DNA of 64,000 nt from positions 10,257-74,256 of the forward strand of contig MWCM01000004.1 in the NCBI GenBank assembly GCA_002070055.1. The letters are read 5' to 3'. This stretch comes from a bacterium ADurb.Bin212 (GTDB taxonomy: Bacteria; Patescibacteriota; UBA1384; XYA2-FULL-43-10). Under the pieces are notes generated by a model that worked only from the letters and a program-made list of their open reading frames with translations, ran no database searches and was not told the DNA's origin. Positions 1 to 58,967 of the stretch are shown in pieces. Position numbers and translations under genes: made by a program. The number at the start of each line of letters is the position of its first letter. Position 1 is the stretch's first letter.

Positions 1-730
1 CCTTTTTGGGAATTCCCCGAGTCATCCAGTTGTCGTAAATGTCGGGATCGACAAATTCCTGGGGAAACTCTTGTAGGAAGCCATTTTTTACATTTTTTGC
101 AGTGATAAGTCTCATTCCAGACTCAGTTTTTTGTGGTGTTTTTCCCCTATAATCAATAAATCTAACGTGCTTCACTAATGGACATGTTTCCCAATCTTCT
201 CCGGGATTGTTAAAAATGCTATTAATGTAAGATTCGAAAAGTTCACGAGCGTTTTGCAAATTTTTTTCTGTATTGTTTTTTGCTTTTTCAATTTTCTCAA
301 ATGCTTCATCCAATTTTTTAACAATTCTTTTTTGCTCATTAAGCGAATCTGGGATATTGACGCTTATCGCGTAGACATCGTTGCGATTAATGCCCGGCTT
401 AACCCCTTTTGCAAGTCCTTGTAAATTCAGGGTCTGTAATAGACGATAGATAAACTGTAAATCGTATTTCTTTTTATCAAAAGTTACGTAGTATGTTACA
501 TCTAATGGCCAAAATTTTCCCTTAGTTAATGTTAATTCTCCTGCCGAGCCTTTTCTGCCAACAATAATACTCCCATTGTCATAATAATATGTATCGCTCC
601 AACTTTTGATTCCATTAGCACCGTACACTGGAAACTTCCCATCAGAAATTCGCTCAGATTTTGGTAATGGTTTACCATACTCTAGCTTTAATATTTCGCC
701 AAGCTTTTTTATTCGCCAATTATCGTTCAT
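1..730 (-). CDS. hsdS: Type I restriction-modification specificity subunit HsdS (N-terminal target-recognition domain; 3' part lies beyond the window start)
   Basis: By my translation the minus-strand ORF starts at ATG 730..728, overlapping the stop of the upstream gene by 11 nt. It runs without a stop to position 1. It reads MNDNWRIKKLGEILKLEYGKPLPKSERISDGKFPVYGANG... then ...ITAKNVKNGFLQEFPQEFVDPDIYDNWMTRGIPKK, which is a typical HsdS target-recognition domain pattern. The ORF track did not list it because it runs off the edge. Confidence 0.7.
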   Translation of the reverse strand, partial: MNDNWRIKKLGEILKLEYGKPLPKSERISDGKFPVYGANGIKSWSDTYYYDNGSIIVGRKGSAGELTLTKGKFWPLDVTYYVTFDKKKYDLQFIYRLLQTLNLQGLAKGVKPGINRNDVYAISVNIPDSLNEQKRIVKKLDEAFEKIEKAKNNTEKNLQNARELFESYINSIFNNPGEDWETCPLVKHVRFIDYRGKTPQKTESGMRLITAKNVKNGFLQEFPQEFVDPDIYDNWMTRGIPKK

Positions 731-2150
731 AAGCCCAACTGTCATATTTTATATGTTTTCTTTGGTTGATATATTCAATCAACATATCGTAAAACATTTC
801 TTTCTCTTGGTTACCTTCTATTTTTACCCCAAACCTATTTTCCTTGCGATATTTGTAATTTCTCCATGAAGCGAGAATTGTTTCTTCATCTGGAATATTA
901 AGGCCAAGAGGTCTCAACATAATTGAAATGTAGTATTCATATGGTATACGCCTATTGTCTCTTTTGAGGTCATAGTGTTTAATTTTGACGAGTTTGCCAC
1001 TTAAAGTATCCATATTTGAAAATGAATGAATAGCAATTTTAACAGCGATATCGAATATTTTCTGAGCATTGTCAGAAAAAGCTTCCTCGTAGTAGCCACC
1101 CTTTTTGAGTTCAGTTAATTGATATCTTGAGCCTTTCAGTAGTTCTCTCAAGTTAATTATCCCGCACCCTATAGCCCTCTCATAAATATCTTTCAAAAAA
1201 AGATTTATATAACCAGAATGACCAAATGCCCCAGTTAGGCTCTGATCTTCACACTTAAAACTTTTAATAATATTATCTACAGTATCAAGAAGAGCTTTTT
1301 TGTTATCAAAGTAATAAGGTGCAATTGAAAAGAACTTATCGATATAACCTGAAAAATCAGCATCAGGTCCATATTTATGGTGAAAAACATGCTTTAAGTT
1401 CGAATAATCGCCTACAATAATAACCGAGTCAAACCCAAATTTATTCTCGTGTTCTTTTTCAAAATAAGCGGACAATATGTTTAATATCCTGAAAATATGT
1501 TCGGGGTCTATTCTGTCTAAATCATCTAACACAAGAACACTTTTTTTATTGCCCTTTTGTTGAATAATTTTATCTCGAAGTAAATTACTAATGTAGTCTT
1601 CTTCAGATATGTCCTTTTCTTTCAGTTTTTCAATGTATTTCTCTGCGAGCCCTTTCTCTCCTTTTTCGAACTCTTTTTTAAAATCTTGATATTCTTTATC
1701 CATTTTGAGCAAACTCTTTAAAGGTCTGCCAAGCTTACCTGAAATACCAAAGATAGGATTAGGCAATGTATCAAGAGTTGATAAAGTTGACTGTAATATT
1801 GAATTCAGGGAGTTACTTTTTCTATACCATGAGAAAAAAAGAAGGGCAGAATCCTTGATCCCTTGTATCTTTTTAGTCGTGAGAATATCGTTGTTCTTGT
1901 CTAACAGCTCGATAAGAATGTCATATTTTATCAGCTCAATGATATCTTCATTGTTGCTTATTTCATAGTTAACTGGAAATAAGTGAAAAACCTCATAGTT
2001 ATCTGTGTTTGAATCAAAAAATTCTTTCAAAAAATACGTCTTACCAATTCCAAATTTACCAGAAAAAAATATCCTAGAATTATTTTCCGTATCTAAAAAT
2101 AATTTGAAATTCTCTTGTACTGTATCAATTGGAATTAATATATCGGGCAT
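720..2150 (-). CDS. KAP-family-like P-loop NTPase inserted between hsdM and hsdS
   Basis: Walker A is GKFGIGKTYFLKEF. Walker B followed by the KAP-signature arginine is VLVLDDLDRIDPEHIFRILNIL. There are no obvious TM insertions. The start overlaps the hsdM stop by 1-3 nt and the stop overlaps the hsdS start, so the three genes are co-transcribed. Confidence 0.6.
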   Translation of the reverse strand: MPDILIPIDTVQENFKLFLDTENNSRIFFSGKFGIGKTYFLKEFFDSNTDNYEVFHLFPVNYEISNNEDIIELIKYDILIELLDKNNDILTTKKIQGIKDSALLFFSWYRKSNSLNSILQSTLSTLDTLPNPIFGISGKLGRPLKSLLKMDKEYQDFKKEFEKGEKGLAEKYIEKLKEKDISEEDYISNLLRDKIIQQKGNKKSVLVLDDLDRIDPEHIFRILNILSAYFEKEHENKFGFDSVIIVGDYSNLKHVFHHKYGPDADFSGYIDKFFSIAPYYFDNKKALLDTVDNIIKSFKCEDQSLTGAFGHSGYINLFLKDIYERAIGCGIINLRELLKGSRYQLTELKKGGYYEEAFSDNAQKIFDIAVKIAIHSFSNMDTLSGKLVKIKHYDLKRDNRRIPYEYYISIMLRPLGLNIPDEETILASWRNYKYRKENRFGVKIEGNQEKEMFYDMLIEYINQRKHIKYDSWAYER

Positions 2151-2151
2151 A

Positions 2152-3627
2152 TTATTTTACTTTCAGAATTTTCTCAACCTCTTTTAGGGATAGATTTGCT
2201 CGTATGTCTAATTTTCTAACGTCTTCCAAGATCTTTTCAGGCGGCAGTATTAAACTACCTTCCCTATTATTCGGATTTTTAACCGAGAGATCAAATGTTT
2301 TTTGGCTGATGTCGGAAACATCGATTGTCCAAGAATTTTCTGAATCGGTTTTTGTTTTTTGTAACTCTAGGAATTCCGCAAGATCTTTTTCGGTTAAAGG
2401 ATTTGTTTTGCCAAGATTACGATCGAGGTTTAATTGGTAATACCAAATCTTTTGAGTTGGTGCACCTTTTTCAAAAAACAGCACAACAGTCTTAACCCCC
2501 GCCTGAAAAACTTTTGCTGGAAGATCAAGGATTGTATGAACATTGCAGTTTTTTAGTAACTCTTGGCGCAGACTTGAGGCATCGCCGTTAGATAAAAAGG
2601 TATTTTTTATAACAATGCCTGCCTTGCCCCCGGCTTTCAATTTTTTAATATAATGCTGTAAAAAGAGATAGGCAGTTTCGCTACTTTTAATGGGAAAGTT
2701 TTGCTGGACTTCACTTCGTTCTTTTCCGCCGAAAGGAGGATTAGTTAAAATAATATCGTAGCGGTCTCTTTCTTGAATGTCAGCGATATTTTCTGAAAGT
2801 GTATTCGCATGAACTATGTTTGGCGCTTCAATGCCGTGTAATATCATATTCATAATGCCGATAATGTAAGGAAGCGGTTTTTTCTCGATGGCATAAAAAG
2901 TTTTTTTTTGAAGTATTTCTATGTCTGAAGTTGATAGATTTTTACTGTTTTTAAGGTAATCAAATGCCTCAACCAAGAAGCCAGCTGAGCCAACGGCGCC
3001 ATCGTAAATTTTGTCACCAATCTTTGGGCCGACTACTTTAACAATCGTGCGAATCAGAGGACGCGGGGTATAGTATTCTCCACCATTACGACCTGCATTA
3101 CCCATGTTTTTGATTTTGCCTTCGTATAGGTGAGACAGCTCATGCTTCTCTGATTGTGATCGAAAATGCATTTGATCGACGATATCTAAAATATTGCGAA
3201 GTGTATAACCAGAATGAATTTTATTTCTAATTTCTGAAAATATTTCACCGATTTTGTATTTAATGGTATCTGGTTCGGCATCCGTTTTGAATTTTCTAAG
3301 ATATGGGAAGAGTTTGTGATCGACAAAATCTCGCAAATCATCACCTGATAGAGCCTTATTATGGTCCAATTTACCATCAGCGGTTTTGGGTGCAGCCCAA
3401 ACATCCCAGCGGTATTCTATATTTAAAATAAATTTATATTCTTTGCCGGCAAGAAGAGCTTCTTTTTGTTTTTGTTCTTCGAGATCGTTCAAATACTTAA
3501 GGAAAAGAATCCAAGATGTTTGCTCAACGTAATCTAGCTCACTTGAAACGCCAGCATCTTTCCGAAGGGTATTGTCAATATTCTTAAATGTTTGTTCAAA
3601 ACTAATTTTTGAATTTGTGTCGAGCAT
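2152..3627 (-). CDS. hsdM: Type I R-M N6-adenine DNA methyltransferase subunit HsdM
   Basis: The N-terminus is HsdM-like (LDYVEQTSWILFLKYLNDLE). Motif I region is GEYYTPRPLIRTIVKVV...GDKIYDGAVGSAGFLVEA. The catalytic motif is ILTNPPFGG. Length is 491 aa. Confidence 0.9.
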   Translation of the reverse strand: MLDTNSKISFEQTFKNIDNTLRKDAGVSSELDYVEQTSWILFLKYLNDLEEQKQKEALLAGKEYKFILNIEYRWDVWAAPKTADGKLDHNKALSGDDLRDFVDHKLFPYLRKFKTDAEPDTIKYKIGEIFSEIRNKIHSGYTLRNILDIVDQMHFRSQSEKHELSHLYEGKIKNMGNAGRNGGEYYTPRPLIRTIVKVVGPKIGDKIYDGAVGSAGFLVEAFDYLKNSKNLSTSDIEILQKKTFYAIEKKPLPYIIGIMNMILHGIEAPNIVHANTLSENIADIQERDRYDIILTNPPFGGKERSEVQQNFPIKSSETAYLFLQHYIKKLKAGGKAGIVIKNTFLSNGDASSLRQELLKNCNVHTILDLPAKVFQAGVKTVVLFFEKGAPTQKIWYYQLNLDRNLGKTNPLTEKDLAEFLELQKTKTDSENSWTIDVSDISQKTFDLSVKNPNNREGSLILPPEKILEDVRKLDIRANLSLKEVEKILKVK

Positions 3628-3655
3628 ATTATCCTTATTTGTTATGTAGTTTCTT

Positions 3656-3928
3656 TTATTTGCTCCTTAATAACTCTTCTATTTTCTCAATAAATCTTTT
3701 ATAACTCACGATTTCCTTATCAATCTTTACCCCACCGGACCAGAGGTATAGCCAATCACCGTTTTTTGCTGTCATCTTTGCATCCGGATGTTCGTGGTAT
3801 TCTCTAACCAAATTCTCGGGACCGTTTCGCAGTAATCTTAAAATCTCTTTTGAAAAGTCATTGTCTTGGTCTTGCAGTGCTTTGGTAAAATCCGTAATCA
3901 ATTCGTTGAGGTTGCTGTAACTTTTCAT
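3656..3928 (-). CDS. hypothetical small protein (90 aa) immediately upstream of hsdM in the same gene string
   Basis: ORF sits 28 bp upstream of hsdM on the same strand. No recognisable motif. Confidence 0.4.
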   Translation of the reverse strand: MKSYSNLNELITDFTKALQDQDNDFSKEILRLLRNGPENLVREYHEHPDAKMTAKNGDWLYLWSGGVKIDKEIVSYKRFIEKIEELLRSK

Positions 3929-4073
3929 TTTTGTAATAAAAGATAATTTTAATTAACAATAAATAGTCAAATCCCGACTAGTTATCTCTCTTTAATTTAT
4001 AAGTCGATTATACCACTTTCACACCTGATATGGAAGAGAACGAAGCTGTTTTTAATCACTATAAGGATAAGGC

Positions 4074-4439
4074 CTAATACTTGTCCAATATCGCTTTCAT
4101 CTCCTTTAGAATTTTCTTCTTATAAACTCCGATGGCGTAATCCAGATGCAATTTCATTCTTTCAGGAGAGTTTTTCGCCGACAGCTTTTTATCCGGTTGG
4201 GACTTTACTTCTTTTGCAATCCCTCGAATAAACTTTTTGTCGAAAGCATCCGGCTTTTGGGCTTCTTTCTCAATATCCAACCACCAGCGAAGCTCGGCTA
4301 TCAATTTGGCAAAGCTTGCCCCGTCCTTATGATTAAGTATTACGCCGTTTTTTCTCTTGACAGTGGCGATTGCTTTCTTTATGTCTTCCTTTGTCGGTTC
4401 GGAAATATCCGGTTTGAACGCTTTTTGATCTTTCATCAT
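4074..4439 (-). CDS. hypothetical protein (121 aa), lysine-rich
   Basis: ORF between the PLD nuclease and the 90-aa ORF, same strand, tightly spaced. No recognisable domain. Confidence 0.4.
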   Translation of the reverse strand: MMKDQKAFKPDISEPTKEDIKKAIATVKRKNGVILNHKDGASFAKLIAELRWWLDIEKEAQKPDAFDKKFIRGIAKEVKSQPDKKLSAKNSPERMKLHLDYAIGVYKKKILKEMKAILDKY

Positions 4440-4444
4440 ACTCC

Positions 4445-5161
4445 TTAACTAAATAGGGTAAATATCGCTCTCATACATTTTAACGATAATACAATCAGAT
4501 TGGAAATAACAGCCGGCAACTTGCTGATAAACTTAGGAACGGAAATCTTCGGGATCATAATTTTTAATCTTGGTCGAAAACTAAACTTTTTCCTGTCAAC
4601 CAAACTTCGATATAACCTCTCATACTGGTATTTATAACCCTCGGCCAGCTTTTTATTAAGCCCCAAGTGGTCCATGACCTGTTTGGCCATGTCTTCGTCT
4701 TCGCTTCGGCGCATCATCTCCCGGCTTTCTCTTTGCGATAGGATATTCAAACTCCCATCCCAAAGGATCTTGCGATCGATAACCGCTGTCTTGGCATGAA
4801 CCAGCCCGGGCAAGGGGATTATGCAGGCTCCCAGCTCCTCGTAATCTTTCAGCGCCGCCTTAATTTCGCTCCTCACAATCAACTCGTGATCTTCAATCGA
4901 CCTGGTGAAGATAAACACGGCAATATTGCGATATTTGAGCTGTTTAAATATCCGGCTGAAATATTCCGAGCGATATTTGGAGATAAAGGGTGAATAAATT
5001 ATGACCTCCTTCTCCGCCAAAAGGAGATCGCGAGAGAAAGATTTATAAAATGATTTTTCATCATATAGATCGAGCTTTCGCGATTCTCTATACTTTTCGG
5101 CATCGATTTCATTTTGCCTGTTTTCAAAATGCCTTTTTAGCGTCGGTGATAATGTTTTCAT
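4445..5161 (-). CDS. PLD-family (HKD motif) nuclease
   Basis: HKD motif is LVHAKTAVIDRKILWDGSLNILS (HxK-x4-D-x6-GSxN). The most plausible start is ATG 5161..5159 (MKTLSPTLKRHF), preceded by AAGGAGG at the right spacing. The ORF-track extension to 5308 is probably non-coding leader and would run into the divergent HTH gene. Confidence 0.7.
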   Translation of the reverse strand: MKTLSPTLKRHFENRQNEIDAEKYRESRKLDLYDEKSFYKSFSRDLLLAEKEVIIYSPFISKYRSEYFSRIFKQLKYRNIAVFIFTRSIEDHELIVRSEIKAALKDYEELGACIIPLPGLVHAKTAVIDRKILWDGSLNILSQRESREMMRRSEDEDMAKQVMDHLGLNKKLAEGYKYQYERLYRSLVDRKKFSFRPRLKIMIPKISVPKFISKLPAVISNLIVLSLKCMRAIFTLFS

Positions 5162-5224
5162 ATTCCTCCTTATAATTATTTTGTTAATCTGGATTTTTAG
5201 GTTTGAAAGTGATATATTCTGGAT

Positions 5225-5440
5225 ATGACAGCCAAACACAGCGGGAATATTTACAAAGGTCTCGGCGACAAGCTTAAGAAGTATCGGGAAGCGGCCAAGA
5301 TGACGCAAGCCAAGGTAGCCGAATTAGCGGGTATCCATGTTAACTATTACGCTAGAATGGAAAGGGGCGAGGAAAATCCGACACTGGAAGTGTTGCATAA
5401 GCTAAAGGAAGTACTGAAAATAAAGTCAGATTTAGTCTGA
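5225..5440 (+). CDS. XRE-family helix-turn-helix transcriptional regulator
   Basis: HTH core is MTQAKVAELAGIHVNYYARMERGEENPTLEVLHKLKEVL. It is divergent from the PLD nuclease/hsdM gene string with a ~60-bp shared intergenic region. Confidence 0.75.
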   Translation: MTAKHSGNIYKGLGDKLKKYREAAKMTQAKVAELAGIHVNYYARMERGEENPTLEVLHKLKEVLKIKSDLV

Positions 5441-5517
5441 TTGATTTTCATAGACTTGCTTTAATACCGGTTCCCACTCCAACGCATACTCGCAAAAGGT
5501 GTTCCAAAATTGGCTCG

Positions 5518-7035
5518 TCAGGTCCACCAAATTTCATTTTTCGCAATTTCTTCCGCTTCGCTCGGCGCTTCGCGCCTCGCTTGCGGTGGCAAATTCAAGA
5601 GTAAATTGTATTGTTTTTGAAAATTCATATTGAGTTTTCCGCCCAGAAGAATGCGGTTCGAGCCGGCGGTTTTAAGAAAATTTCTCATAGCGGAGAAATT
5701 TTTTGTTTTAACAAAATTTTCAGCTTGGTTGGCGTCATAAATCCAATTTTTCAAGAGTTCGAGCCAATGATTTCCCTTTCGCTCAAAATCTCTTAACTTT
5801 TCTTCAAACTCGGCTTTTTGCTCGATAAGTTTGTTTTTCTTTTCTTTGAATTCCTCTAGCTCCAAAGCTCCGTCTAAATATGCGTCAGAAAGCCGATCAA
5901 GCCGAGTTTTGATATATTCTATTTTCTCTTTTAGATTTTGAGCGAAAACAGCCGACGAGTGGTTTTCTTCATTTTCCCACTCTTTGATCTGTAGCATATA
6001 CTTTTCTTTCCACTCGTCGGGTAAAGAAACTGTTTGACAAAGTTCTTCTATCTGTTGCGCTAAAACTTCTTCACGAACGAACTTTCGCTCGGTGCAATTT
6101 TGGGTTTTGCTTTTATGGGTGCAACGATAGTAAACATACTCTCTACCACTTGGCTTAAACTTTCTCTCAGCAGTTATGGCATAACCGCAACTTCCGCATT
6201 TGGCAAAACCCAAAAACTTTAGTTCTCGTTCAGTTCGTTTCTTGCGGGGTTTAGAGTGGTCTTTTAGCGCAACTTGGATTTTGTCAAAAGTTTCTTTTGA
6301 AATCATTGGCTTATGGGAACCTTGATAGAGTTCGCCATCATAACTTATGACGCCGTAATAAAATGGCTTTGTTAAAATCTTCTGTATAGATGACAAAGCC
6401 ATTTTATTGCCATCTTTGCCAACCAAGCCAAGAGAAAACATTTTTGCTTGAATTTTAGTTAGCGAAAACTCGCCAGAGGCAAAAAACTCCAGCGTTTTCT
6501 TAACCAAAGGAAATGTCTTTTTGTTTGGCTCAATAGTTCTAAGTCTTGGCTCGTTGAAGTAACCGAGTGGAGCTTTGCTTGGCAATTCTCCTCGGCGAAG
6601 TTTTTGCCTGATTCCTCGCAAAATGTTTTCTCTTAAATTGTCGGTGTAATATTTGGCTTGGCCAAAGGCAACGCTTAACATAAACTTTCCTTGCGGAGTT
6701 GCCTCAAACCAAAAGGTTGGGAATTTTAGCGAAGTAATTTTTCCGGTATCGACTAAATAGATAACTCTTCCGCCATCAACAGAGTTTCGGGCTAAACGAT
6801 CTGGGTTCCAGGCTAAAATTCCCGAAGCGTTGCCTTTTTCAATTTCCAAAAGCATTTGGTTAAAAATCGGTCGCCCAGGCTCCTTGGCGGTTCGACTTTC
6901 GGTAAATTCACGGACGATCATTAAGTCATTTTGTCGGGCAAAATCGCGTAGCTCTTGGAGCTGGGCTTCAATAGACAAAATTTGCCTTTCTTCCTCTTCG
7001 GAAGATTTACGGCAATAGATAAAGTACTTTTCCAT
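5518..7035 (-). CDS. large serine recombinase (resolvase/invertase catalytic domain, recombinase domain and zinc-ribbon)
   Basis: The N-terminus FIYCRKSSEEEERQILSIEAQ carries the catalytic Ser context. The recombinase domain contains GYFNEPRLRTIEP. A Cys cluster CGSCG...CTHKSKTQNC forms a zinc ribbon. It ends in a coiled-coil C-terminus. AAGGAGGG precedes the ATG. Confidence 0.85.
   Translation of the reverse strand: MEKYFIYCRKSSEEEERQILSIEAQLQELRDFARQNDLMIVREFTESRTAKEPGRPIFNQMLLEIEKGNASGILAWNPDRLARNSVDGGRVIYLVDTGKITSLKFPTFWFEATPQGKFMLSVAFGQAKYYTDNLRENILRGIRQKLRRGELPSKAPLGYFNEPRLRTIEPNKKTFPLVKKTLEFFASGEFSLTKIQAKMFSLGLVGKDGNKMALSSIQKILTKPFYYGVISYDGELYQGSHKPMISKETFDKIQVALKDHSKPRKKRTERELKFLGFAKCGSCGYAITAERKFKPSGREYVYYRCTHKSKTQNCTERKFVREEVLAQQIEELCQTVSLPDEWKEKYMLQIKEWENEENHSSAVFAQNLKEKIEYIKTRLDRLSDAYLDGALELEEFKEKKNKLIEQKAEFEEKLRDFERKGNHWLELLKNWIYDANQAENFVKTKNFSAMRNFLKTAGSNRILLGGKLNMNFQKQYNLLLNLPPQARREAPSEAEEIAKNEIWWT
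5521..5660 (-). repeat. Repeat copy A: the 3' end of the intact serine-recombinase gene (last ~45 codons), homologous to copies B and C
   Basis: The reverse complement of 5521-5660 aligns at ~85% identity with 7150-7286. The shared encoded peptide is ...NRILLGGKLN(M/I)NFQKQY.LL.NLPPQAR....EAE....NE.WW. Confidence 0.8.
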
Positions 7036-7156
7036 AATTCCCTCCTTAAATTTTGTCTATTAACCAAATGCTTTTATGTACCGACAATTTATTGAAAATT
7101 TTGTTCCCGCCGGCTCTAAAGAATTACATTCTTTTCTGTGCTTCGCACAGAAACCG

Positions 7157-7334
7157 CATTTTGCTGGGCGGAAAACTCAATATTAATTTTCAAAAACAAT
7201 ATGAATTACTCTCGAATTTGCCACCGCAAGCGAGAGCCATTGGCTCGAGCGAAGCGGAACAAAAAGCAATAAATGAAAAATGGTGGTGTGTTTTGAACGA
7301 AGCTCGAACTTTTTTCGAAAAAAATACTCAATAA
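7157..7334 (+). pseudogene. orphan C-terminal fragment of a serine recombinase gene
   Basis: It encodes RNRILLGGKLNINFQKQYELLSNLPPQARAIGSSEAEQKAINEKWWCVLNEARTFFEKNTQ*, homologous to the last ~45 residues of the intact recombinase. No upstream recombinase body is present, because the sequence 5' of 7150 is unrelated. Confidence 0.6.
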
Positions 7335-7344
7335 ATTTTCGCTC

Positions 7345-7458
7345 GCGCGGCCGTGAAGGGGCGTGGGGAGGAAACGGCCGCGCTCGCTCAAAATGTTTTC
7401 AAAAATGCAATTTGCTCGTGCGTGCGCAGGAAGGGGTGTGGGGAGGGAATGCGCACGC
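7345..7458 (+). other. GC-rich twin-hairpin module; it recurs in reverse orientation at ~10671-10784
   Basis: Hairpin 1 is gcgcggccg / 21-nt G-rich loop tgaaggggcgtggggaggaaa / cggccgcgc. Hairpin 2 is gcgtgcgc / 23-nt loop aggaaggggtgtggggagggaat / gcgcacgc. The module is ~70% GC in a ~35% GC genome. Confidence 0.6.
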
Positions 7459-7561
7459 TCTCGCTTTTTGGGGCGGGGCGAAAAAATAGCAGAAAAGGTA
7501 AGCTTATGCTAATTATAGTATGTAGTATCAAAATTAGCAATTAGCTTATACTGATGATAAA

Positions 7562-7780
7562 ATGAGTAAAGAAAAAGTTCTAGAAAAATTTGGCATCAGA
7601 GTTCGACAAGAACGGATGAAATTGGGTTTATCGCAAGAAGCTTTGGCAGACAAGGCTGGAGTACACCGAACTTATGTCGGCATGATTGAAAGAGCAGAAA
7701 AAAATATTACTTTGCTCAACATTGAAAAAATTGCCAAAGCATTAAAAATAAGTATAAATAATTTAACAAAGTGGGACTGA
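7562..7780 (+). CDS. XRE-family HTH protein, likely an R-M controller (C-protein)
   Basis: HTH is LSQEALADKAGVHRTYVGMIERAEKNITLLNIEKIAKAL. It sits 3 bp upstream of the REase gene. A dyad GCTAATT-N17-AATTAGC (7508-7538) upstream is a possible operator. Confidence 0.65.
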   Translation: MSKEKVLEKFGIRVRQERMKLGLSQEALADKAGVHRTYVGMIERAEKNITLLNIEKIAKALKISINNLTKWD

Positions 7781-7783
7781 ATT

Positions 7784-8668
7784 ATGAATAAATTATGGTG
7801 CAAAGATTGCGAAAAAGACTTTTTCTTTAGTGCATTGAAATTGGCAACTCCAGAACAATTATTTTACGTTACTAGCGACCAGAAGTATTGTGCTTATTGG
7901 CCGAAAAAATACGGCGACGTAAAATCGACTCTCCAAAGCAGAAACTCTCTTATTGGAAACTACACTGAAAAATGGGGTGTTGAGCTTTTTAGAGAAATTG
8001 CTGAAAAGCTTGGTGGCTTTTCGGTTCAGGGCGTTATTTGTGAAGAAATTGGTCTAACTCGACAATCTGCTGCCGATGTGGCGATTTGCAAAACAAAGAA
8101 TGTGATTCAAAAGCCAGAAAACATTTTGATGATTTTTGAAATTAAGATGTCGATAACTTGGAACTGGGAGCTTAAGCAACGAGGCAAGGAATATGATCTG
8201 GTATGTCTTGGCGATTACAACACTCACCAAGGAAATCCAAGTTTGCTAAGATCTGATTCAATGTTGAAAGCTATTGGGAAAAGTATCAATATTCGAGTTT
8301 CAAGTTTTGCGGCTAGTAAAATTCCAATCGTGATAATTGGTAATACACCGATCACAAGCTCCTATTATAAAAAAGTTGATCACTTGAAACAAAGCGGAAT
8401 TATTCAAGGTTTTTGGTCCGTCAATCCCGAGCCATTGGACAATAACAAAGAAAGCTTAGAAAAAACGAAGCTCGGTGGTTTCATCAGAATTAACAAATAT
8501 GACGAACTTGTAAAAATGACGCTCGATCTAGGTGCAGACGATAGAGAATTCTTTTCAAGCATGCAAAACAAACAAAGACTTGGAGAAATAATTAAAATTG
8601 CAAATCAGGAAGAAACCGAAGAAGCGAAAGCTCAAAAATTTCTTGAACTTATTAGGGAGGTAGAGTAA
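7784..8668 (+). CDS. putative Type II restriction endonuclease (PD-(D/E)xK-like)
   Basis: It lies between the C-protein-like gene and the methyltransferase gene. A candidate catalytic core is ...AADVAICK...ILMIFEIKMS (D...E-x-K). There is no match to other families that I can recognise. Confidence 0.45.
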   Translation: MNKLWCKDCEKDFFFSALKLATPEQLFYVTSDQKYCAYWPKKYGDVKSTLQSRNSLIGNYTEKWGVELFREIAEKLGGFSVQGVICEEIGLTRQSAADVAICKTKNVIQKPENILMIFEIKMSITWNWELKQRGKEYDLVCLGDYNTHQGNPSLLRSDSMLKAIGKSINIRVSSFAASKIPIVIIGNTPITSSYYKKVDHLKQSGIIQGFWSVNPEPLDNNKESLEKTKLGGFIRINKYDELVKMTLDLGADDREFFSSMQNKQRLGEIIKIANQEETEEAKAQKFLELIREVE

Positions 8669-9574
8669 ATGGCAGAAGTTAAGACACGAAAAGGAACAGA
8701 AACCAGCTCTTTCGGTACACCTGGAAGAAGCAATCATGATGCTTCCAAATTTTATGCAAGCAAAATGTATAGTGGTTTGAATAACGGCAACGGAGATGTT
8801 GAATATCGCGAAAATCCGATCAAAGAAGAATATATCAACAAAATATTCTGCAAAAGTAGCGAGAAAATGTCGGAGCTTCCCAATGACAGTGTTCATATTA
8901 TGATCACTTCCCCGCCATATAATGTTGGAAAGGATTATGACAAGGATTTGAGTCTGGACGACTACCGAAAACTCCTATACAGAGTTTTCAAAGAAACATA
9001 CCGAGTGCTAGTTCCTGGCGGTAGGGCTTGCATAAACATCGCCAACTTAGGCAGGAAGCCATATCTTCCTTTGCATAGTTATATTATTGAAGACATGGCA
9101 GAAATCGGTTATATCATGCGAGGTGAAATTATTTGGGATAAAGGTTCAAGTGCCAGTCCTTCAACCGCTTGGGGTTCGTATCTTAAAGCTAATAATCCCG
9201 TCTTGCGTGATGTTCATGAGTATATACTTATTTTTTGCAAAGAAACTTATTCGATGCAAAACTTGCATAAAAAGAAAAGTACAATCACTAAAGAAGAGTT
9301 TATGGAATATACCAAAAGCGTCTGGAAGTTTGCCGCTCAAAGGGCTTCAAAGGTTGGACATCCGGCGCCTTTTCCTCTCGATCTTCCATCGCGCCTGATT
9401 AAGCTATACACTTTCGAAAATGATGTTGTTCTCGATCCGTTCACTGGCGCCGGAACGACAAATGTTGCCGCCTTAGAACTCAATCGTAGGCATATTGGTT
9501 ATGATGTTGATAAAAAGTATTGCGATTTAGCAGAAAACAGAATAATGCAATGCAAAAGTAAATTACCATTATAA
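8669..9574 (+). CDS. DNA methyltransferase, beta-class (motif IV SPPY precedes motif I FxGxG); likely N4-cytosine or N6-adenine
   Basis: Motif IV is IMITSPPYNVGKDYD. Motif I near the C-terminus is VVLDPFTGAGTTNVAALE. Length is 301 aa. Confidence 0.85.
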   Translation: MAEVKTRKGTETSSFGTPGRSNHDASKFYASKMYSGLNNGNGDVEYRENPIKEEYINKIFCKSSEKMSELPNDSVHIMITSPPYNVGKDYDKDLSLDDYRKLLYRVFKETYRVLVPGGRACINIANLGRKPYLPLHSYIIEDMAEIGYIMRGEIIWDKGSSASPSTAWGSYLKANNPVLRDVHEYILIFCKETYSMQNLHKKKSTITKEEFMEYTKSVWKFAAQRASKVGHPAPFPLDLPSRLIKLYTFENDVVLDPFTGAGTTNVAALELNRRHIGYDVDKKYCDLAENRIMQCKSKLPL

Positions 9575-9978
9575 TGGAAAATAAACGCAAACATTTAGAG
9601 TTTATTCAAAACGTTATCAGTCGAATGGCTGGCAATCTATTTTTTCTTCGTGGCTGGACTATAACGTTAATTGCTGCATTACTTGCTCTCTTTGCTAAAG
9701 GTGGAAACCATACCTATATACTTTATTTTCTGATTGTTTTGATAATAGTATTTTGGATTTTAGACGGATTTTTTTTATCTCAAGAACGACTTTTTCGTGA
9801 CCTCTACAATGATGTCCGCTTACTAAAAGAAGAAAAAATAGATTTCAACATGGATGTTTCGCCTTATAAAAATTACAAAAAGAATACACTAATCTTTTCT
9901 ATGTTTTCTTCGACTTTATTAATATTTTACATTCCACTTGTCATCACTGCCTTGGTTATTATCTATTTAGTAAAATAA
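9574..9978 (+). CDS. small integral membrane protein (3 predicted TM helices), translationally coupled to the methyltransferase
   Basis: The start ATG overlaps the methyltransferase stop (taATGg). Hydrophobic segments are WTITLIAALLALFA, YILYFLIVLIIVFWILDGFF and LIFSMFSSTLLIFYIPLVITALVIIYLV. Confidence 0.5.
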   Translation: MENKRKHLEFIQNVISRMAGNLFFLRGWTITLIAALLALFAKGGNHTYILYFLIVLIIVFWILDGFFLSQERLFRDLYNDVRLLKEEKIDFNMDVSPYKNYKKNTLIFSMFSSTLLIFYIPLVITALVIIYLVK

Positions 9979-9986
9979 GAATTATT

Positions 9987-10643
9987 ATGGCTAAAAAAAT
10001 TTTTGTGAGTTATAAGCACAATGATCAGAGTGTTAAACCGCTAAAACAATATCTAACAGCAACTGCCAGAGATTATGTCGACGAACTTGAGAAGTATTTT
10101 GAAGAGGGAGACTTTATCTACAAAGGAGAGGATGTCGACAACGACCTGAGCAATCTGACAGACGGAAGTATCGCTCAAATCCTTTACGACAAAATATATG
10201 ACAGCTCGGTAACAATAGTTTTAGTTTCAAAAAATATGAGAGATTATAAAACCGAGAAGGATCAATGGATACCTCGAGAAATCTCTTACTCCCTTACTGA
10301 AAATAACAGGGGTGAAAGGATTAGCGCTACCAATGCTATGCTCGCTGTAGTTTTACCGGATGAAAATGGCGATTACTCATACATCGTCACACATCACCCA
10401 TGCGTGACACGCTGGAATACAGCTTCGTTATTCAACATTCTCAACCAAAATATGTTTAACAGGAAAAGTAAAAACACCTATCAATGCACTGATTGTTACG
10501 GGCAACACCATACTGGAAAAGACCATTCATATATTCACCCGGTCAAATGGGATGATTTTATTTTGGATATCGATGGTTATATAAACTTAGCTACGGAAAT
10601 TCAACAGAATATTGATGAATACGATATAGCAAAAGAATTATAA
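9987..10643 (+). CDS. TIR-like domain protein (ThsB / DUF1863 / MTH538 type) with a Cys/His-rich C-terminal extension
   Basis: The N-terminus is KIFVSYKHND, the TIR strand-1 pattern. The central region is SVTIVLVSKNM...QWIPREISYSL, matching the DUF1863 S..VLIG...W..YEI pattern. The C-terminus is HHPCVTRW...YQCTDCYGQHHTGKDHSYIHP, a possible zinc site. It starts 8 bp after the TM-protein stop. Confidence 0.6.
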   Translation: MAKKIFVSYKHNDQSVKPLKQYLTATARDYVDELEKYFEEGDFIYKGEDVDNDLSNLTDGSIAQILYDKIYDSSVTIVLVSKNMRDYKTEKDQWIPREISYSLTENNRGERISATNAMLAVVLPDENGDYSYIVTHHPCVTRWNTASLFNILNQNMFNRKSKNTYQCTDCYGQHHTGKDHSYIHPVKWDDFILDIDGYINLATEIQQNIDEYDIAKEL

Positions 10644-10648
10644 TTCCG

Positions 10649-10920
10649 CCCCCGCCCCAAAAAGCGAGAGCGTGCGCATTCCCTCCCCACACCCCTTCCT
10701 GCGCACGCACGAGCAAATTGCATTTTTGAAAACATTTTGAGCGAGCGCGGCCGTTTCCTCCCCACGCCCCTTCACGGCCGCGCGAGCGAAAATTTATTGA
10801 GTATTTTTTTCGAAAAAAGTTCGAGCTTCGTTCAAAACACACCACCATTTTTCACTTCGTGCCAATTCTTCCGCTTCGCTCGAGCCTTCGGCTCTCGCTT
10901 GCGGTGGTAAATTCAAGAAT
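10649..10920 (-). repeat. Repeat copy C: the GC-rich twin-hairpin module plus a recombinase 3'-end fragment, an inverted copy of B
   Basis: Positions 10649-10867 are nearly identical to the reverse complement of 7480-7262. Positions 10790-10920 encode, on the minus strand, ...LPPQARAEGSSEAEELARSEKWWCVLNEARTFFEKNTQ*. The upstream body position is occupied by the APH-like kinase gene. Confidence 0.85.
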
Positions 10921-58885: not shown

Positions 58886-58967
58886 AAACCGCATCTTACT
58901 TCAAGAGCGTACTGAAAAGTCCGCGGCCCCGAGCCGCGGACTTCGCACTTTAGTACATGTAATTATA

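What the first reader, a model, noticed from the sequence alone, without database searches (positions are those of the whole stretch)
7341..7480. GC-rich twin-hairpin module with G-rich loops, perfectly conserved between copies B and C
The module is ~70% GC in a ~35% GC genome. It has two consecutive hairpins with 8-9-bp GC stems and 21- and 23-nt purine-rich loops (GAAGGGGCGTGGGGAGGAAA and GGAAGGGGTGTGGGGAGGGAA), followed by TTTTTGGGGCGGGGCG. The coding part of the repeat has diverged to ~85% while this module is identical in both copies. That pattern implies selection or gene conversion on the non-coding part. Candidates are the recombinase crossover or accessory site, a small structured RNA, or a protein-binding element. 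The spurious ORFs 7280-7489, 7353-7544 and 10591-10848 arise only from this repeat.
Basis: seen in the sequence. Interest (0 to 1): 0.55.

Follow-up and report, generated by a model that had tools for sequence, protein, structure and literature searches.

The report
Conserved hairpin arm beside recombinase attachment site
The GC-rich twin hairpin is real: it is the structured non-coding arm beside the attachment site of a small recombinase-driven defence island found across ultra-small (CPR) bacteria, and its G-rich loop has no described function.

Summary
Two perfect hairpins lie at 7345-7383 and 7420-7458, with an inverted copy at 10670-10783. They have 19- and 21-nt G-tract loops, in a module of 64% GC within a 39% GC window. 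Copies B and C are 100% identical from 7274 to 7478 but only 85% identical in the 80 nt before that.

The identity switch lies within 8 nt of TGGTGG (7281-7286). This is the inferred crossover core of the adjacent large serine recombinase (5518-7035). In related loci that core is the CCA end of a tRNA or tmRNA gene.

So the module is not the crossover site. It starts about 35 bp beyond an attP-type half-site. Two inverted copies of that site plus arm flank a 3.2-kb defence cargo.

The hairpin belongs to a family found in about 90 low-GC contigs. All those named by their records are Patescibacteria, apart from one Gammaproteobacteria label. Loops stay 93-95% identical while stems fall to 23-50% identity yet remain complementary. 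The loop occurs in either orientation. Rfam and the literature search found nothing.

Its function is unresolved. A DNA-level, G-quadruplex-prone palindrome acting as an arm boundary element is my best inference.

The parts
5518..7035 (-). Large serine recombinase gene (505 aa). Its last codons, ...W W T, are encoded by TGGTGGACC.
   Evidence: Pfam Resolvase + Recombinase + Zn_ribbon_recom. NCBIfam hits to XisF and CcrB fall below their cut-offs. At least 5987 homologues were found; those named are from Patescibacteria.
5518..5529 (+). Copy A core: a 12-nt remnant of a tRNA-Ala 3' end (TCAGGTCCACCA) overlapping the recombinase stop. This is a decayed attR junction (P arm | tRNA arm).
   Evidence: The same 12 nt are the 3' end of intact tRNA-Ala genes that overlap the recombinase 3' end in L013 and L018. 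In the window the similarity stops after 12 nt.
7053..7286 (+). Copy B P arm: an inverted partial copy of the recombinase 3' end (ORF of 93 aa), ending in the core TGGTGG (7281-7286).
   Evidence: tblastn matches recombinase residues 439-505 to 7083-7289 at 57%. DNA repeats I2 and I3. The same arrangement is conserved in L002, L013 and L024.
7287..7340 (+). Copy B P' half-site and tail: TGTGTTTTGAACGAAGCTCGAAC..., with the TCGAAC motif at 7304-7309 (position 24 from the core TGG).
   Evidence: The motif is at +24 in nearly all the P' arms examined from four divergent families (L002's has a mismatch), but at +19 in all tRNA arms. This is the 5-bp shift between attP and attB half-sites described for serine integrases (PMC3783163).
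7341..7480 (+). The finding: the twin-hairpin arm of copy B (HP1 7345-7383, HP2 7420-7458, then TTTTTGGGGCGGGGCG), with the G-rich loops on the + strand.
   Evidence: Family-wide covariation of the stems.
7562..10643 (+). Cargo: control (C) protein, an unknown 294-aa protein, a type II N6/N4 methyltransferase, PDC-M50A, and a ThsB-like TIR protein.
   Evidence: Pfam and PADLOC.
10649..10790 (-). The twin-hairpin arm of copy C (HP2 10670-10708, HP1 10745-10783), with the G-rich loops on the - strand.
10791..10918 (-). Copy C P' half-site, core (CCACCA on + at 10842-10847) and a 71-nt remnant of a recombinase 3' end (10848-10918). Read as the junction with an older, decayed element.
   Evidence: Direct repeat D1 with copy A at 81%. 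tblastn matches recombinase residues 480-504 at 72%. All mismatches with B lie in this P part.

Best explanation
What the module is. The twin hairpin is the structured arm lying just inside the attP-type half-site (P') of a small integrative element. The element is driven by a large serine recombinase that targets the 3' (CCA) end of tRNA and tmRNA genes.

Layout in the window:
- Decayed attR: recombinase 3' end joined to 12 nt of tRNA-Ala, at 5518-5529.
- The recombinase gene.
- An internal inverted attP-type site with its arm (copy B).
- A cargo of defence genes.
- A second, inverted P' site with its arm (copy C), joined to the remnant of an older recombinase gene.

This explains the identity pattern. 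The two arms belong to one element and are kept identical, so identity is 100% up to the crossover core. Beyond it the P arms have separate histories, giving 85%.

Shown here:
- The anatomy above.
- The position of the core.
- The attP-versus-attB spacing signature.
- The family-wide stem covariation.
- The conserved loop.

Inferred: what the hairpin does. My reading is that the hairpin itself acts at the DNA level.
- It is a perfect palindrome whose stem can have any sequence.
- Its loop is a near mirror-symmetric G-tract motif, GGA-GGGG-YGT-GGGG-AGG, prone to form a G-quadruplex closed by the stem.
- It tolerates either orientation.

I take it to be a non-B-DNA boundary element of the cargo bay. 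It could act as a roadblock or insulator between the recombinase, the host genes and the toxic cargo. It could also be a hotspot that keeps the two arms homogenised. That functional step carries roughly 30% on its own.
For: Context:
- Copies A, B and C diverge exactly after TGGTGG.
- In L002, L013, L018, L023 and L104 the recombinase 3' end runs into the CCA end of a convergent tRNA gene at that point. In L102 an inverted fragment runs into the tmRNA 3' end there.
- In L104 the three sites read as attL (host|P'), internal attP (P|P') and attR (P|tRNA-Glu), consistent with one GG crossover.
- The TCGAAC motif is at +19 in tRNA arms and +24 in P' arms, as in PMC3783163.
- Recombinase homologues all end in WW. 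This is followed either by tRNA read-through or by a P'-encoded tail, CVLNEARTFFEKN.

Hairpin family:
- About 90 low-GC loci contain it.
- There are 34 stem versions.
- All 12 pairs show changes on both sides; 84% of cells are paired against 52% in shuffles.
- Between sub-families the HP1 loop is 94% identical while its stems are 48-50% identical.
- 63 of 111 hairpins lie 63-247 nt from a strict attP-type signature, against about 5 expected.

DNA-level reading:
- There are almost no G-U pairs.
- Orientation relative to the core is 30 G against 33 C.
- The loop is flipped relative to homologous flanks in some sub-families.
- G4Hunter scores are 2.19 and 1.95.
Against: - No experiment or read-level data show recombination, transcription or a G-quadruplex.
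- ViennaRNA's G-quadruplex model does not place one in the minimum-energy fold.
- The hairpin is optional. Arms of L104, L107 and the second recombinase of L018 lack the G-loop hairpin: L104's carries other GC-rich hairpins, L018's none.
- Serine integrases are known to need no accessory DNA (PMC3783163).
- A 21-nt loop makes cruciform extrusion costly.
- The loop's exact conservation is partly an ascertainment effect for HP2, because the loci were found with the loop as the search pattern. The HP1 loop, which was not the scan pattern (it was picked up next to HP2 allowing up to 3 mismatches), and unbiased loci do show variants: GGGGTGCGGGG in L102 and GGGGGTTGGGGGG in L108.
- In the window the element looks grounded, because the tRNA arm is lost.
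Confidence: 0.55

Rival explanations
1. The module is a structured RNA. It could be a cis-acting UTR element of the recombinase or cargo mRNAs. It could also be a small RNA whose C-rich loop (UUCCCUCCCCACACCCCUUCC, containing the anti-Shine-Dalgarno core CCUCC) or G-rich loop (containing GGAGG and two GGA motifs) binds mRNAs, ribosomes or an RNA-binding protein.
For: - Covarying stems with a conserved loop are the classic signature of a functional RNA hairpin.
- The C-rich strand folds much better than shuffles, z = -4.7.
- The arms sit directly after the stop codons of the last cargo gene (10643) and, in state-(a) relatives, of the recombinase.
- Because the arms are inverted, every transcript crossing the island carries one G-loop and one C-loop.
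Against: - Orientation relative to the att core and to neighbouring genes is close to 50:50.
- G-U pairs are nearly absent, which is unlike RNA helices.
- There is no Rfam match at either the gathering or the E-value threshold.
- There is no conserved promoter.
- The G-strand fold is not better than shuffles, z = -1.4.
Confidence: 0.17
2. The hairpins are accessory DNA sites of the recombination system. On this view the recombinase, a directionality factor or a host protein binds them as extruded or single-stranded hairpins. Binding would control integration, excision or inversion between the two inverted attP-type sites.
For: - The hairpins are strictly linked to attP-type arms in recombinase families only 45% identical.
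- The distance to the core is short and bounded, with a median of 134 nt.
- There are one or two copies per arm.
- Both orientations of the recombinase segment exist among 85-95% identical recombinases.
Against: - Some arms in the same architecture lack the G-loop hairpin (L104, L107).
- Stems differ between elements with near-identical recombinases.
- Serine integrases characterised so far use minimal 40-50-bp sites (PMC3783163).
- No cargo inversion was seen among related loci.
Confidence: 0.15
3. The hairpin is a selfish or neutral palindromic mini-element, REP- or MITE-like. On this view it colonises the GC-rich hairpin arrays of these arms and has no function for the island.
For: - Its presence among arms is patchy.
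- It occurs in both orientations.
- Another small hairpin is nested inside the HP1 loop in L033, L071 and L093.
- Loops are degenerate in older arm pairs, as in L057.
Against: - Copy number is low and copies are confined to att arms.
- No empty stems with small loops were found.
- No filled-versus-empty sites were found.
- No target duplications were found.
- The loop stays about 94% identical while the stems diverge to 23-50%. A neutral element would not show this.
- No transposase is associated.
Confidence: 0.1
4. The hairpins are ordinary Rho-independent terminators of the recombinase fragment and the cargo operon.
For: - The stems are GC-rich and placed right after stop codons.
- HP2 is followed by TTTTT after 6 nt.
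- One terminator-like hit overlaps the inner end of copy C.
Against: - The loops are 19-21 nt, where canonical terminators have 3-8.
- Across the family, a T-rich tail follows only 11 of 72 hairpins on the G strand and 2 of 72 on the C strand.
- A terminator does not need an invariant loop.
Confidence: 0.03

Closest known systems
attP arms of large serine integrase elements (A118/LI, Bxb1, phiC31; Rutherford et al. 2013, PMC3783163)
   Same: - A large serine recombinase gene abuts its own attachment site.
- Homology between attP, attL and attR breaks at one core.
- The distal recognition motif lies 5 bp further from the core in the element half-site than in the host half-site.
   Different: - Known sites are minimal (40-50 bp) with no structured arms.
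- Here a 100-270-nt arm of GC-rich hairpins follows P'.
- The element carries two inverted attP-type copies.
- The P arm is the recombinase's own coding 3' end.
Dehalococcoides ssrA genomic islands (DsiB serine recombinase, PMC3146451) and tycheposons (tRNA-proximal islands, bioRxiv 10.1101/2020.12.28.424599)
   Same: - Cargo islands are integrated at the 3' end of tmRNA or tRNA genes.
- A serine recombinase is involved, always for ssrA islands and in a minority of tycheposons.
- Remnants of older elements are pushed away from the tRNA gene.
   Different: - Those islands are bounded by direct repeats of the t(m)RNA 3' end.
- No inverted arms or conserved hairpins are reported for them.
- The crossover in ssrA islands is in the T-loop, not at the CCA end.
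Restriction-modification units flanked by long inverted repeats (Furuta et al. 2010, PMC2853133)
   Same: A compact restriction-modification gene unit is bracketed by inverted repeats of tens to hundreds of bp and linked to a mobility gene.
   Different: - In that survey the origin of the repeats was unknown, and they were treated as transposon-like ends with short target duplications.
- Here the repeats are attP-type sites plus structured arms of a serine-recombinase element.
REP/BIME palindromes. Also stem-closed chair-type G-quadruplexes such as the thrombin-binding aptamer GGTTGGTGTGGTTGG (from my own knowledge, not tested).
   Same: - REP/BIME: GC-rich extragenic palindromes in either orientation, at gene ends.
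- Aptamer: mirror-symmetric G-tracts around a central TGT turn, with the two ends adjacent. This fits closure by a duplex stem.
   Different: - REPs are present in hundreds of copies, with conserved stems rather than loops.
- No quadruplex has been shown for this loop, and the folding model did not predict one.

Membership tests
attP-type attachment-site region of a large serine recombinase element | An adjacent gene has Resolvase + Recombinase + zinc-ribbon domains. | tested here: met
   Window 5518-7035. A recombinase gene starts 200-450 nt from a hairpin in many of the related loci.
attP-type attachment-site region of a large serine recombinase element | Element, host and hybrid sites share one core at which homology switches. 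| tested here: met
   The break is after TGGTGG (TGGCTC in another family) in copies A, B and C, and in L002, L008, L013, L018, L023, L102 and L104. The L104 sites fit a single GG crossover.
attP-type attachment-site region of a large serine recombinase element | The distal (zinc-ribbon) motif is 5 bp further from the core in attP half-sites than in attB half-sites. | tested here: met
   The TCGAAC-like motif is at +24 in P' arms and +19 in tRNA arms. The rule is from PMC3783163.
attP-type attachment-site region of a large serine recombinase element | Recombination at these sites is demonstrated (circular junction, empty site, in vitro reaction). | not testable with these tools
   No reads or experiments are available. 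Only comparative evidence exists: two arrangements of the recombinase segment among 85-95% identical genes.
The module itself as the crossover site | The homology break or exchange point lies inside 7341-7480. | tested here: not met
   B and C are identical throughout the module. The switch is at 7274-7286.
Known RNA family (Rfam 15) | A covariance-model match at or near the gathering score. | tested here: not met
   The window gives only four tRNAs. The best hit in 7000-7600 is 16.7 bits against a 45-bit cut-off.
Rho-independent terminator | A GC-rich stem, a loop of 3-8 nt, and a U-tract immediately 3'. | tested here: not met
   The loops are 19-21 nt. The T-tract after HP2 starts 6 nt after the stem. 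T-rich tails follow 11 of 72 and 2 of 72 family members.
REP/MITE-like dispersed repeat | Many copies are scattered through one genome, independent of a particular gene. | tested here: not met
   The 64-kb window holds four hairpins, all in this island. Where one genome could be followed, it held 3-4 hairpins. 63 of 111 hairpins lie next to an attP-type signature. Whole genomes could not be scanned.
Invertible DNA segment (Hin/Gin-type switch) | Both orientations of the segment between the inverted repeats are observed. | tested here: inconclusive
   Cargo: no inversion among the roughly six related locus pairs that shared both cargo and flanks. Recombinase segment: both orientations occur in close relatives (window versus L065, L071 and L102), and the tail classes support this. 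Integration through either of two attP copies would give the same picture.
G-quadruplex-forming motif | Four G-tracts within a short span, with a demonstrated or predicted quadruplex fold. | tested here: inconclusive
   The tracts are GG, GGGG, GGGG and GGG. G4Hunter scores are 2.19 and 1.95. ViennaRNA with gquad does not put a quadruplex in the minimum-energy fold.

The most novel reading that the evidence does not exclude
The hairpin may be a new kind of DNA signal: a stem-closed G-quadruplex and cruciform element. It would be part of a previously undescribed design of serine-recombinase element, with two inverted attP copies around a cargo bay, comparable to the inverted repeats of the yeast 2-micron plasmid. 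In that design the structured arms would drive flip-flop or gene conversion between the copies, and the swapping of defence cargo between very distant Patescibacteria.
Probability: 0.13. Interest if true: 0.8.

Novelty: new variant of a known kind. Interest (0 to 1): 0.6.

Why it matters
- **Defence genes in CPR bacteria.** Patescibacteria have tiny genomes and few recognised mobile elements. How they trade defence genes is poorly understood.
- **A shared vehicle.** These 5-6-kb islands move restriction-modification and TIR systems. Their recombinases are 88-89% identical between Berkelbacteria and Saccharibacteria.
- **Scale.** The recombinase family has thousands of members.
- **Predictable attachment sites.** The sites can be read from the sequence: the tRNA CCA end, the WW codons and the 5-bp motif shift. 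That is useful for mining integrases.
- **An orphan motif.** The hairpin loop is a strongly constrained 19-21-nt motif with no known reader. If it proves to be a structure-specific DNA signal, it would add an accessory layer to a recombinase class thought to need none.

Tried and rejected
- **Known RNA families.** Rfam at the gathering and E-value thresholds gave nothing.
- **Phage and plasmid collections.** blastn gave no match.
- **IMG/VR.** The motif hits are chance matches in GC-rich contigs without stems. A recombinase-based scan gave two partial loci.
- **Literature.** Searching by sequence found only human Sp1 sites. No paper describing this element in CPR bacteria was found.
- **Window as an artificial join of contigs.** An NCBI contig ends at window position 7762. 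The ORF crossing that point is intact, and the downstream cargo proteins looked up are not on record, so I treated the window as contiguous.
- **Empty versus filled sites.** None were found, but the loci were selected on the loop.
- **Same stems with a small loop.** None were found.
- **Cargo inversion between related loci.** None were seen.
- **Considered from the sequence and set aside.**
  - Diversity-generating retroelement and integron attC readings: no reverse transcriptase or IntI, and the repeats are inverted.
  - IS200/IS605-type ends: the hairpins are not on the same strand and there is no HUH gene.
  - A Chi-like or DNA-uptake sequence: too few copies, and the orientation is not consistent.
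  - Cassette circles joined at P'|P': incompatible with a non-palindromic GG crossover.

Full report
**1.

The two hairpins are as follows.
- HP1 has the stem GCGCGGCCGT/ACGGCCGCGC at 7345-7354 / 7374-7383. Its 19-nt loop is GAAGGGGCGTGGGGAGGAA.
- HP2 has the stem GCGTGCGCA/TGCGCACGC at 7420-7428 / 7450-7458. Its 21-nt loop is GGAAGGGGTGTGGGGAGGGAA.
- HP2 is followed by TCTCGCTTTTTGGGGCGGGGCG.

An inverted copy lies at 10649-10790. The module is 63.6% GC in a 38.8% GC window.

The loop motif occurs four times, against 0.17 expected. Apart from these four hairpins, the 64-kb window holds only one other GC-rich perfect 8-bp hairpin.

The inverted repeat is 7210-7478 / 10650-10918. All 12 mismatches lie in 7213-7273, and none in 7274-7478.

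**2. The surroundings**

- A 505-aa large serine recombinase is encoded at 5518-7035 on the minus strand.
- Its 3' end (copy A) is repeated, inverted, just upstream of the gene (copy B, 7053-7286). It is repeated again beyond a 3.2-kb cargo (copy C, 10848-10918).
- The cargo encodes a control protein, an unknown 294-aa protein, a type II methyltransferase, PDC-M50A and a ThsB-like TIR protein.
- Copies A, B and C all diverge right after TGGTGG.

**3. TGGTGG is the crossover core, and it is a tRNA CCA end**

In related loci the recombinase gene runs into the 3' end of a convergent tRNA gene exactly at this hexamer.
- The tRNAs are Leu in L002, Ala in L013 and L018, Asn in L023 and Glu in L104.
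- In L102 the inverted fragment abuts the tmRNA 3' end instead.

The window's copy A keeps only 12 nt of a tRNA-Ala end.

L104 comes from a 634-kb Parcubacteria contig and gives the cleanest case.
- One junction reads host terminator | P' arm, which is attL.
- The cargo is flanked by 272-nt inverted arms that are 100% identical.
- An internal site reads P|P'.
- The recombinase is followed by P | tRNA-Glu, which is attR.
- All of this is consistent with one GG crossover.

A TCGAAC-like motif sits at +19 from the core in every tRNA arm. It sits at +24 in every P' arm checked except L002's, which has a mismatch there; these arms come from four divergent families. This is the 5-bp shift of the zinc-ribbon motif between attB and attP half-sites described by Rutherford et al. 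(PMC3783163).

All 120 closest homologues end in WW or MW. This is followed either by tRNA read-through (…DSNP…) or by the P'-encoded tail CVLNEARTFFEKN. So two arrangements exist.
- In one the recombinase reads into the tRNA, as in the window.
- In the other it reads into P', the hairpins and the cargo. This occurs in L065, L071 and L102.

**4. What the module is**

HP1 starts 64 nt after the start of the core hexamer. That is about 35 bp beyond the P' half-site. The module is therefore the structured arm of an attP-type site, not the crossover.

The 85% versus 100% contrast follows from this. The two P' arms belong to one element and are homogenised. Arms are also 100% identical in L004, L005, L034, L061, L101, L104 and L107. 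The P arms have different histories. Copy C looks like the remnant of an older recombinase gene left behind by a later integration. This resembles the accretion described for ssrA islands and tycheposons.

**5. The hairpin is a family**

- Scanning species-representative genomes with the loop gave 25 stretches. The low-GC ones, about two-thirds of them, carry the stem; apart from two stretches of one contig labelled Gammaproteobacteria, those named by their records are Patescibacteria (Saccharibacteria, Berkelbacteria, Magasanikiibacteriota). The GC-rich chance hits lack a stem.
- A metagenome scan added 71 loci.
- There are 34 stem versions.
- All 12 stem pairs show changes on both sides. 84% of cells are paired, against 52% in shuffles and 35-51% with slid partners.
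- Between the two sub-families of twin modules, the HP1 loop is 94% identical and the HP1 stems are 48-50% identical. HP1 was not the scan pattern; it was picked up next to HP2 allowing up to 3 mismatches. The HP2 stems are 23-24% identical.
- Loci found through the recombinase, with no bias towards the loop, show variants such as GGGGTGCGGGG (L102) and GGGGGTTGGGGGG (L108). Some arms lack the hairpin altogether (L104, L107).
- 63 of 111 hairpins lie 63-247 nt from a strict core-plus-24 signature, against about 5 expected.
- The cargoes differ: restriction-modification systems, HEPN, DpnI-like enzymes, an ABC transporter, and a sigma factor with an amidase.

**6. RNA or DNA?**

- G-U pairs are almost absent.
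- The loop faces either way relative to the core, 30 G against 33 C.
- It is flipped relative to homologous flanks between sub-families.
- No Rfam family matches.
- Terminator features are not general.

These points favour a palindrome maintained at the DNA level, or one used on both strands.

The loop is nearly mirror-symmetric: GGA-GGGG-YGT-GGGG-AGG. Its G4Hunter score is about 2, but ViennaRNA does not predict a quadruplex. I infer a non-B-DNA boundary element. This functional step is not shown.

**7. Rivals**

The rivals are a structured RNA, an accessory recombination site, a selfish palindrome and a plain terminator. They are weighed in their own section. None is excluded except the reading of the module as the crossover site.

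**8. Novelty**

I found no description of this hairpin, or of this two-attP, tRNA-CCA-targeting element family, in Rfam or in the searchable literature. The kinds of thing involved are known: serine-integrase att regions, tRNA-proximal islands, and restriction-modification units with inverted repeats (PMC2853133). I therefore rate it a new variant of a known kind.

Noticed in passing
window 5518-5532; protein ids P0001-P0120: The recombinase family (at least 5987 homologues) always ends in WW (some MW), encoded by TGGTGG. This is the reverse complement of the tRNA end ...ACCA plus two acceptor bases. Tails after WW fall into two classes: tRNA read-through (…DSNP…) and the P'-encoded CVLNEARTFFEKN. 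Protein length alone (about 501-507 against about 517-523 aa) largely reports which way the gene is joined, though some tRNA read-through tails also reach that length.
   Followed up: yes
window 7230-7255, 5555-5580 and 10873-10898: Inside the coding P arm there is a small 5-bp hairpin with compensatory changes between copies: GGCGC-GAA-GCGCC in A, GAGCC-ATT-GGCTC in B and GAGCC-GAA-GGCTC in C. L013 and L024 have further versions. It is flanked by GCGAAGC, a motif known as a very stable DNA mini-hairpin (from my own knowledge).
   Followed up: partly
L033 about 2070-2140, L071 about 690-760, L093 about 135-205: In three loci the HP1 loop carries a nested small hairpin (ATCTCGAG-GGCGGAA-CTCGAGAT) that replaces the first G-tract.
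   Followed up: partly
L107 4342-4563, 9450-9800, 11377-11632: One locus has three copies of the P' arm. The recombinase is flanked by two full inverted P|P' sites (256 nt, 100% identical). Its cargo includes a Replic_Relax (plasmid-type) gene and an HNH nuclease. The contig ends inside the third arm.
   Followed up: partly
L005 about 3170-3190, L007 about 4780-4800, L048 about 40-60, L019/L025/L026 inner flanks: A motif, (T)GACGATTTC(A/C)AGTTTTT, recurs at the inner boundary between arm and cargo in several otherwise different arm families. It could be a cargo promoter or another junction signal.
   Followed up: no
L008 1736-1800: The tRNA-Asn abutting the recombinase is cut off after about 34 nt of its 3' part and is not called by ARAGORN. 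The equivalent tRNA is intact in L023. This may mark a second insertion or rearrangement in the tRNA.
   Followed up: no
window 1-5500 and L001 7763-12245: To the left of the recombinase lies a second defence block. It holds an HTH protein, a PLD-like nuclease, type I restriction-modification genes (HsdM, HsdS, HsdR), a KAP NTPase and a PD-(D/E)xK protein. It replaces the tRNA body expected at copy A.
   Followed up: partly
window 7762: The only public contig carrying this recombinase (JAKJEJ010000008.1, GCA_022705485.1) is 100% identical to window 1-7762 and ends there. That point is 284 nt inside the cargo. The four cargo proteins looked up are not on record, which suggests strain-variable cargo or an assembly break at the repeat.
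   Followed up: partly
window 58918-58942: This is the only other GC-rich perfect hairpin in the window (stem AGTCCGCGGC-type, short loop). It is unrelated in sequence to the module.
   Followed up: no
L013 2391-2826 with L018: In one Saccharibacteria contig the element sits right after the tRNA-Ala of a 16S - tRNA-Ile - tRNA-Ala array. A second recombinase, 44% identical, sits at another tRNA-Ala 6 kb away. Its own inverted arm has no GC-rich hairpin.
   Followed up: partly
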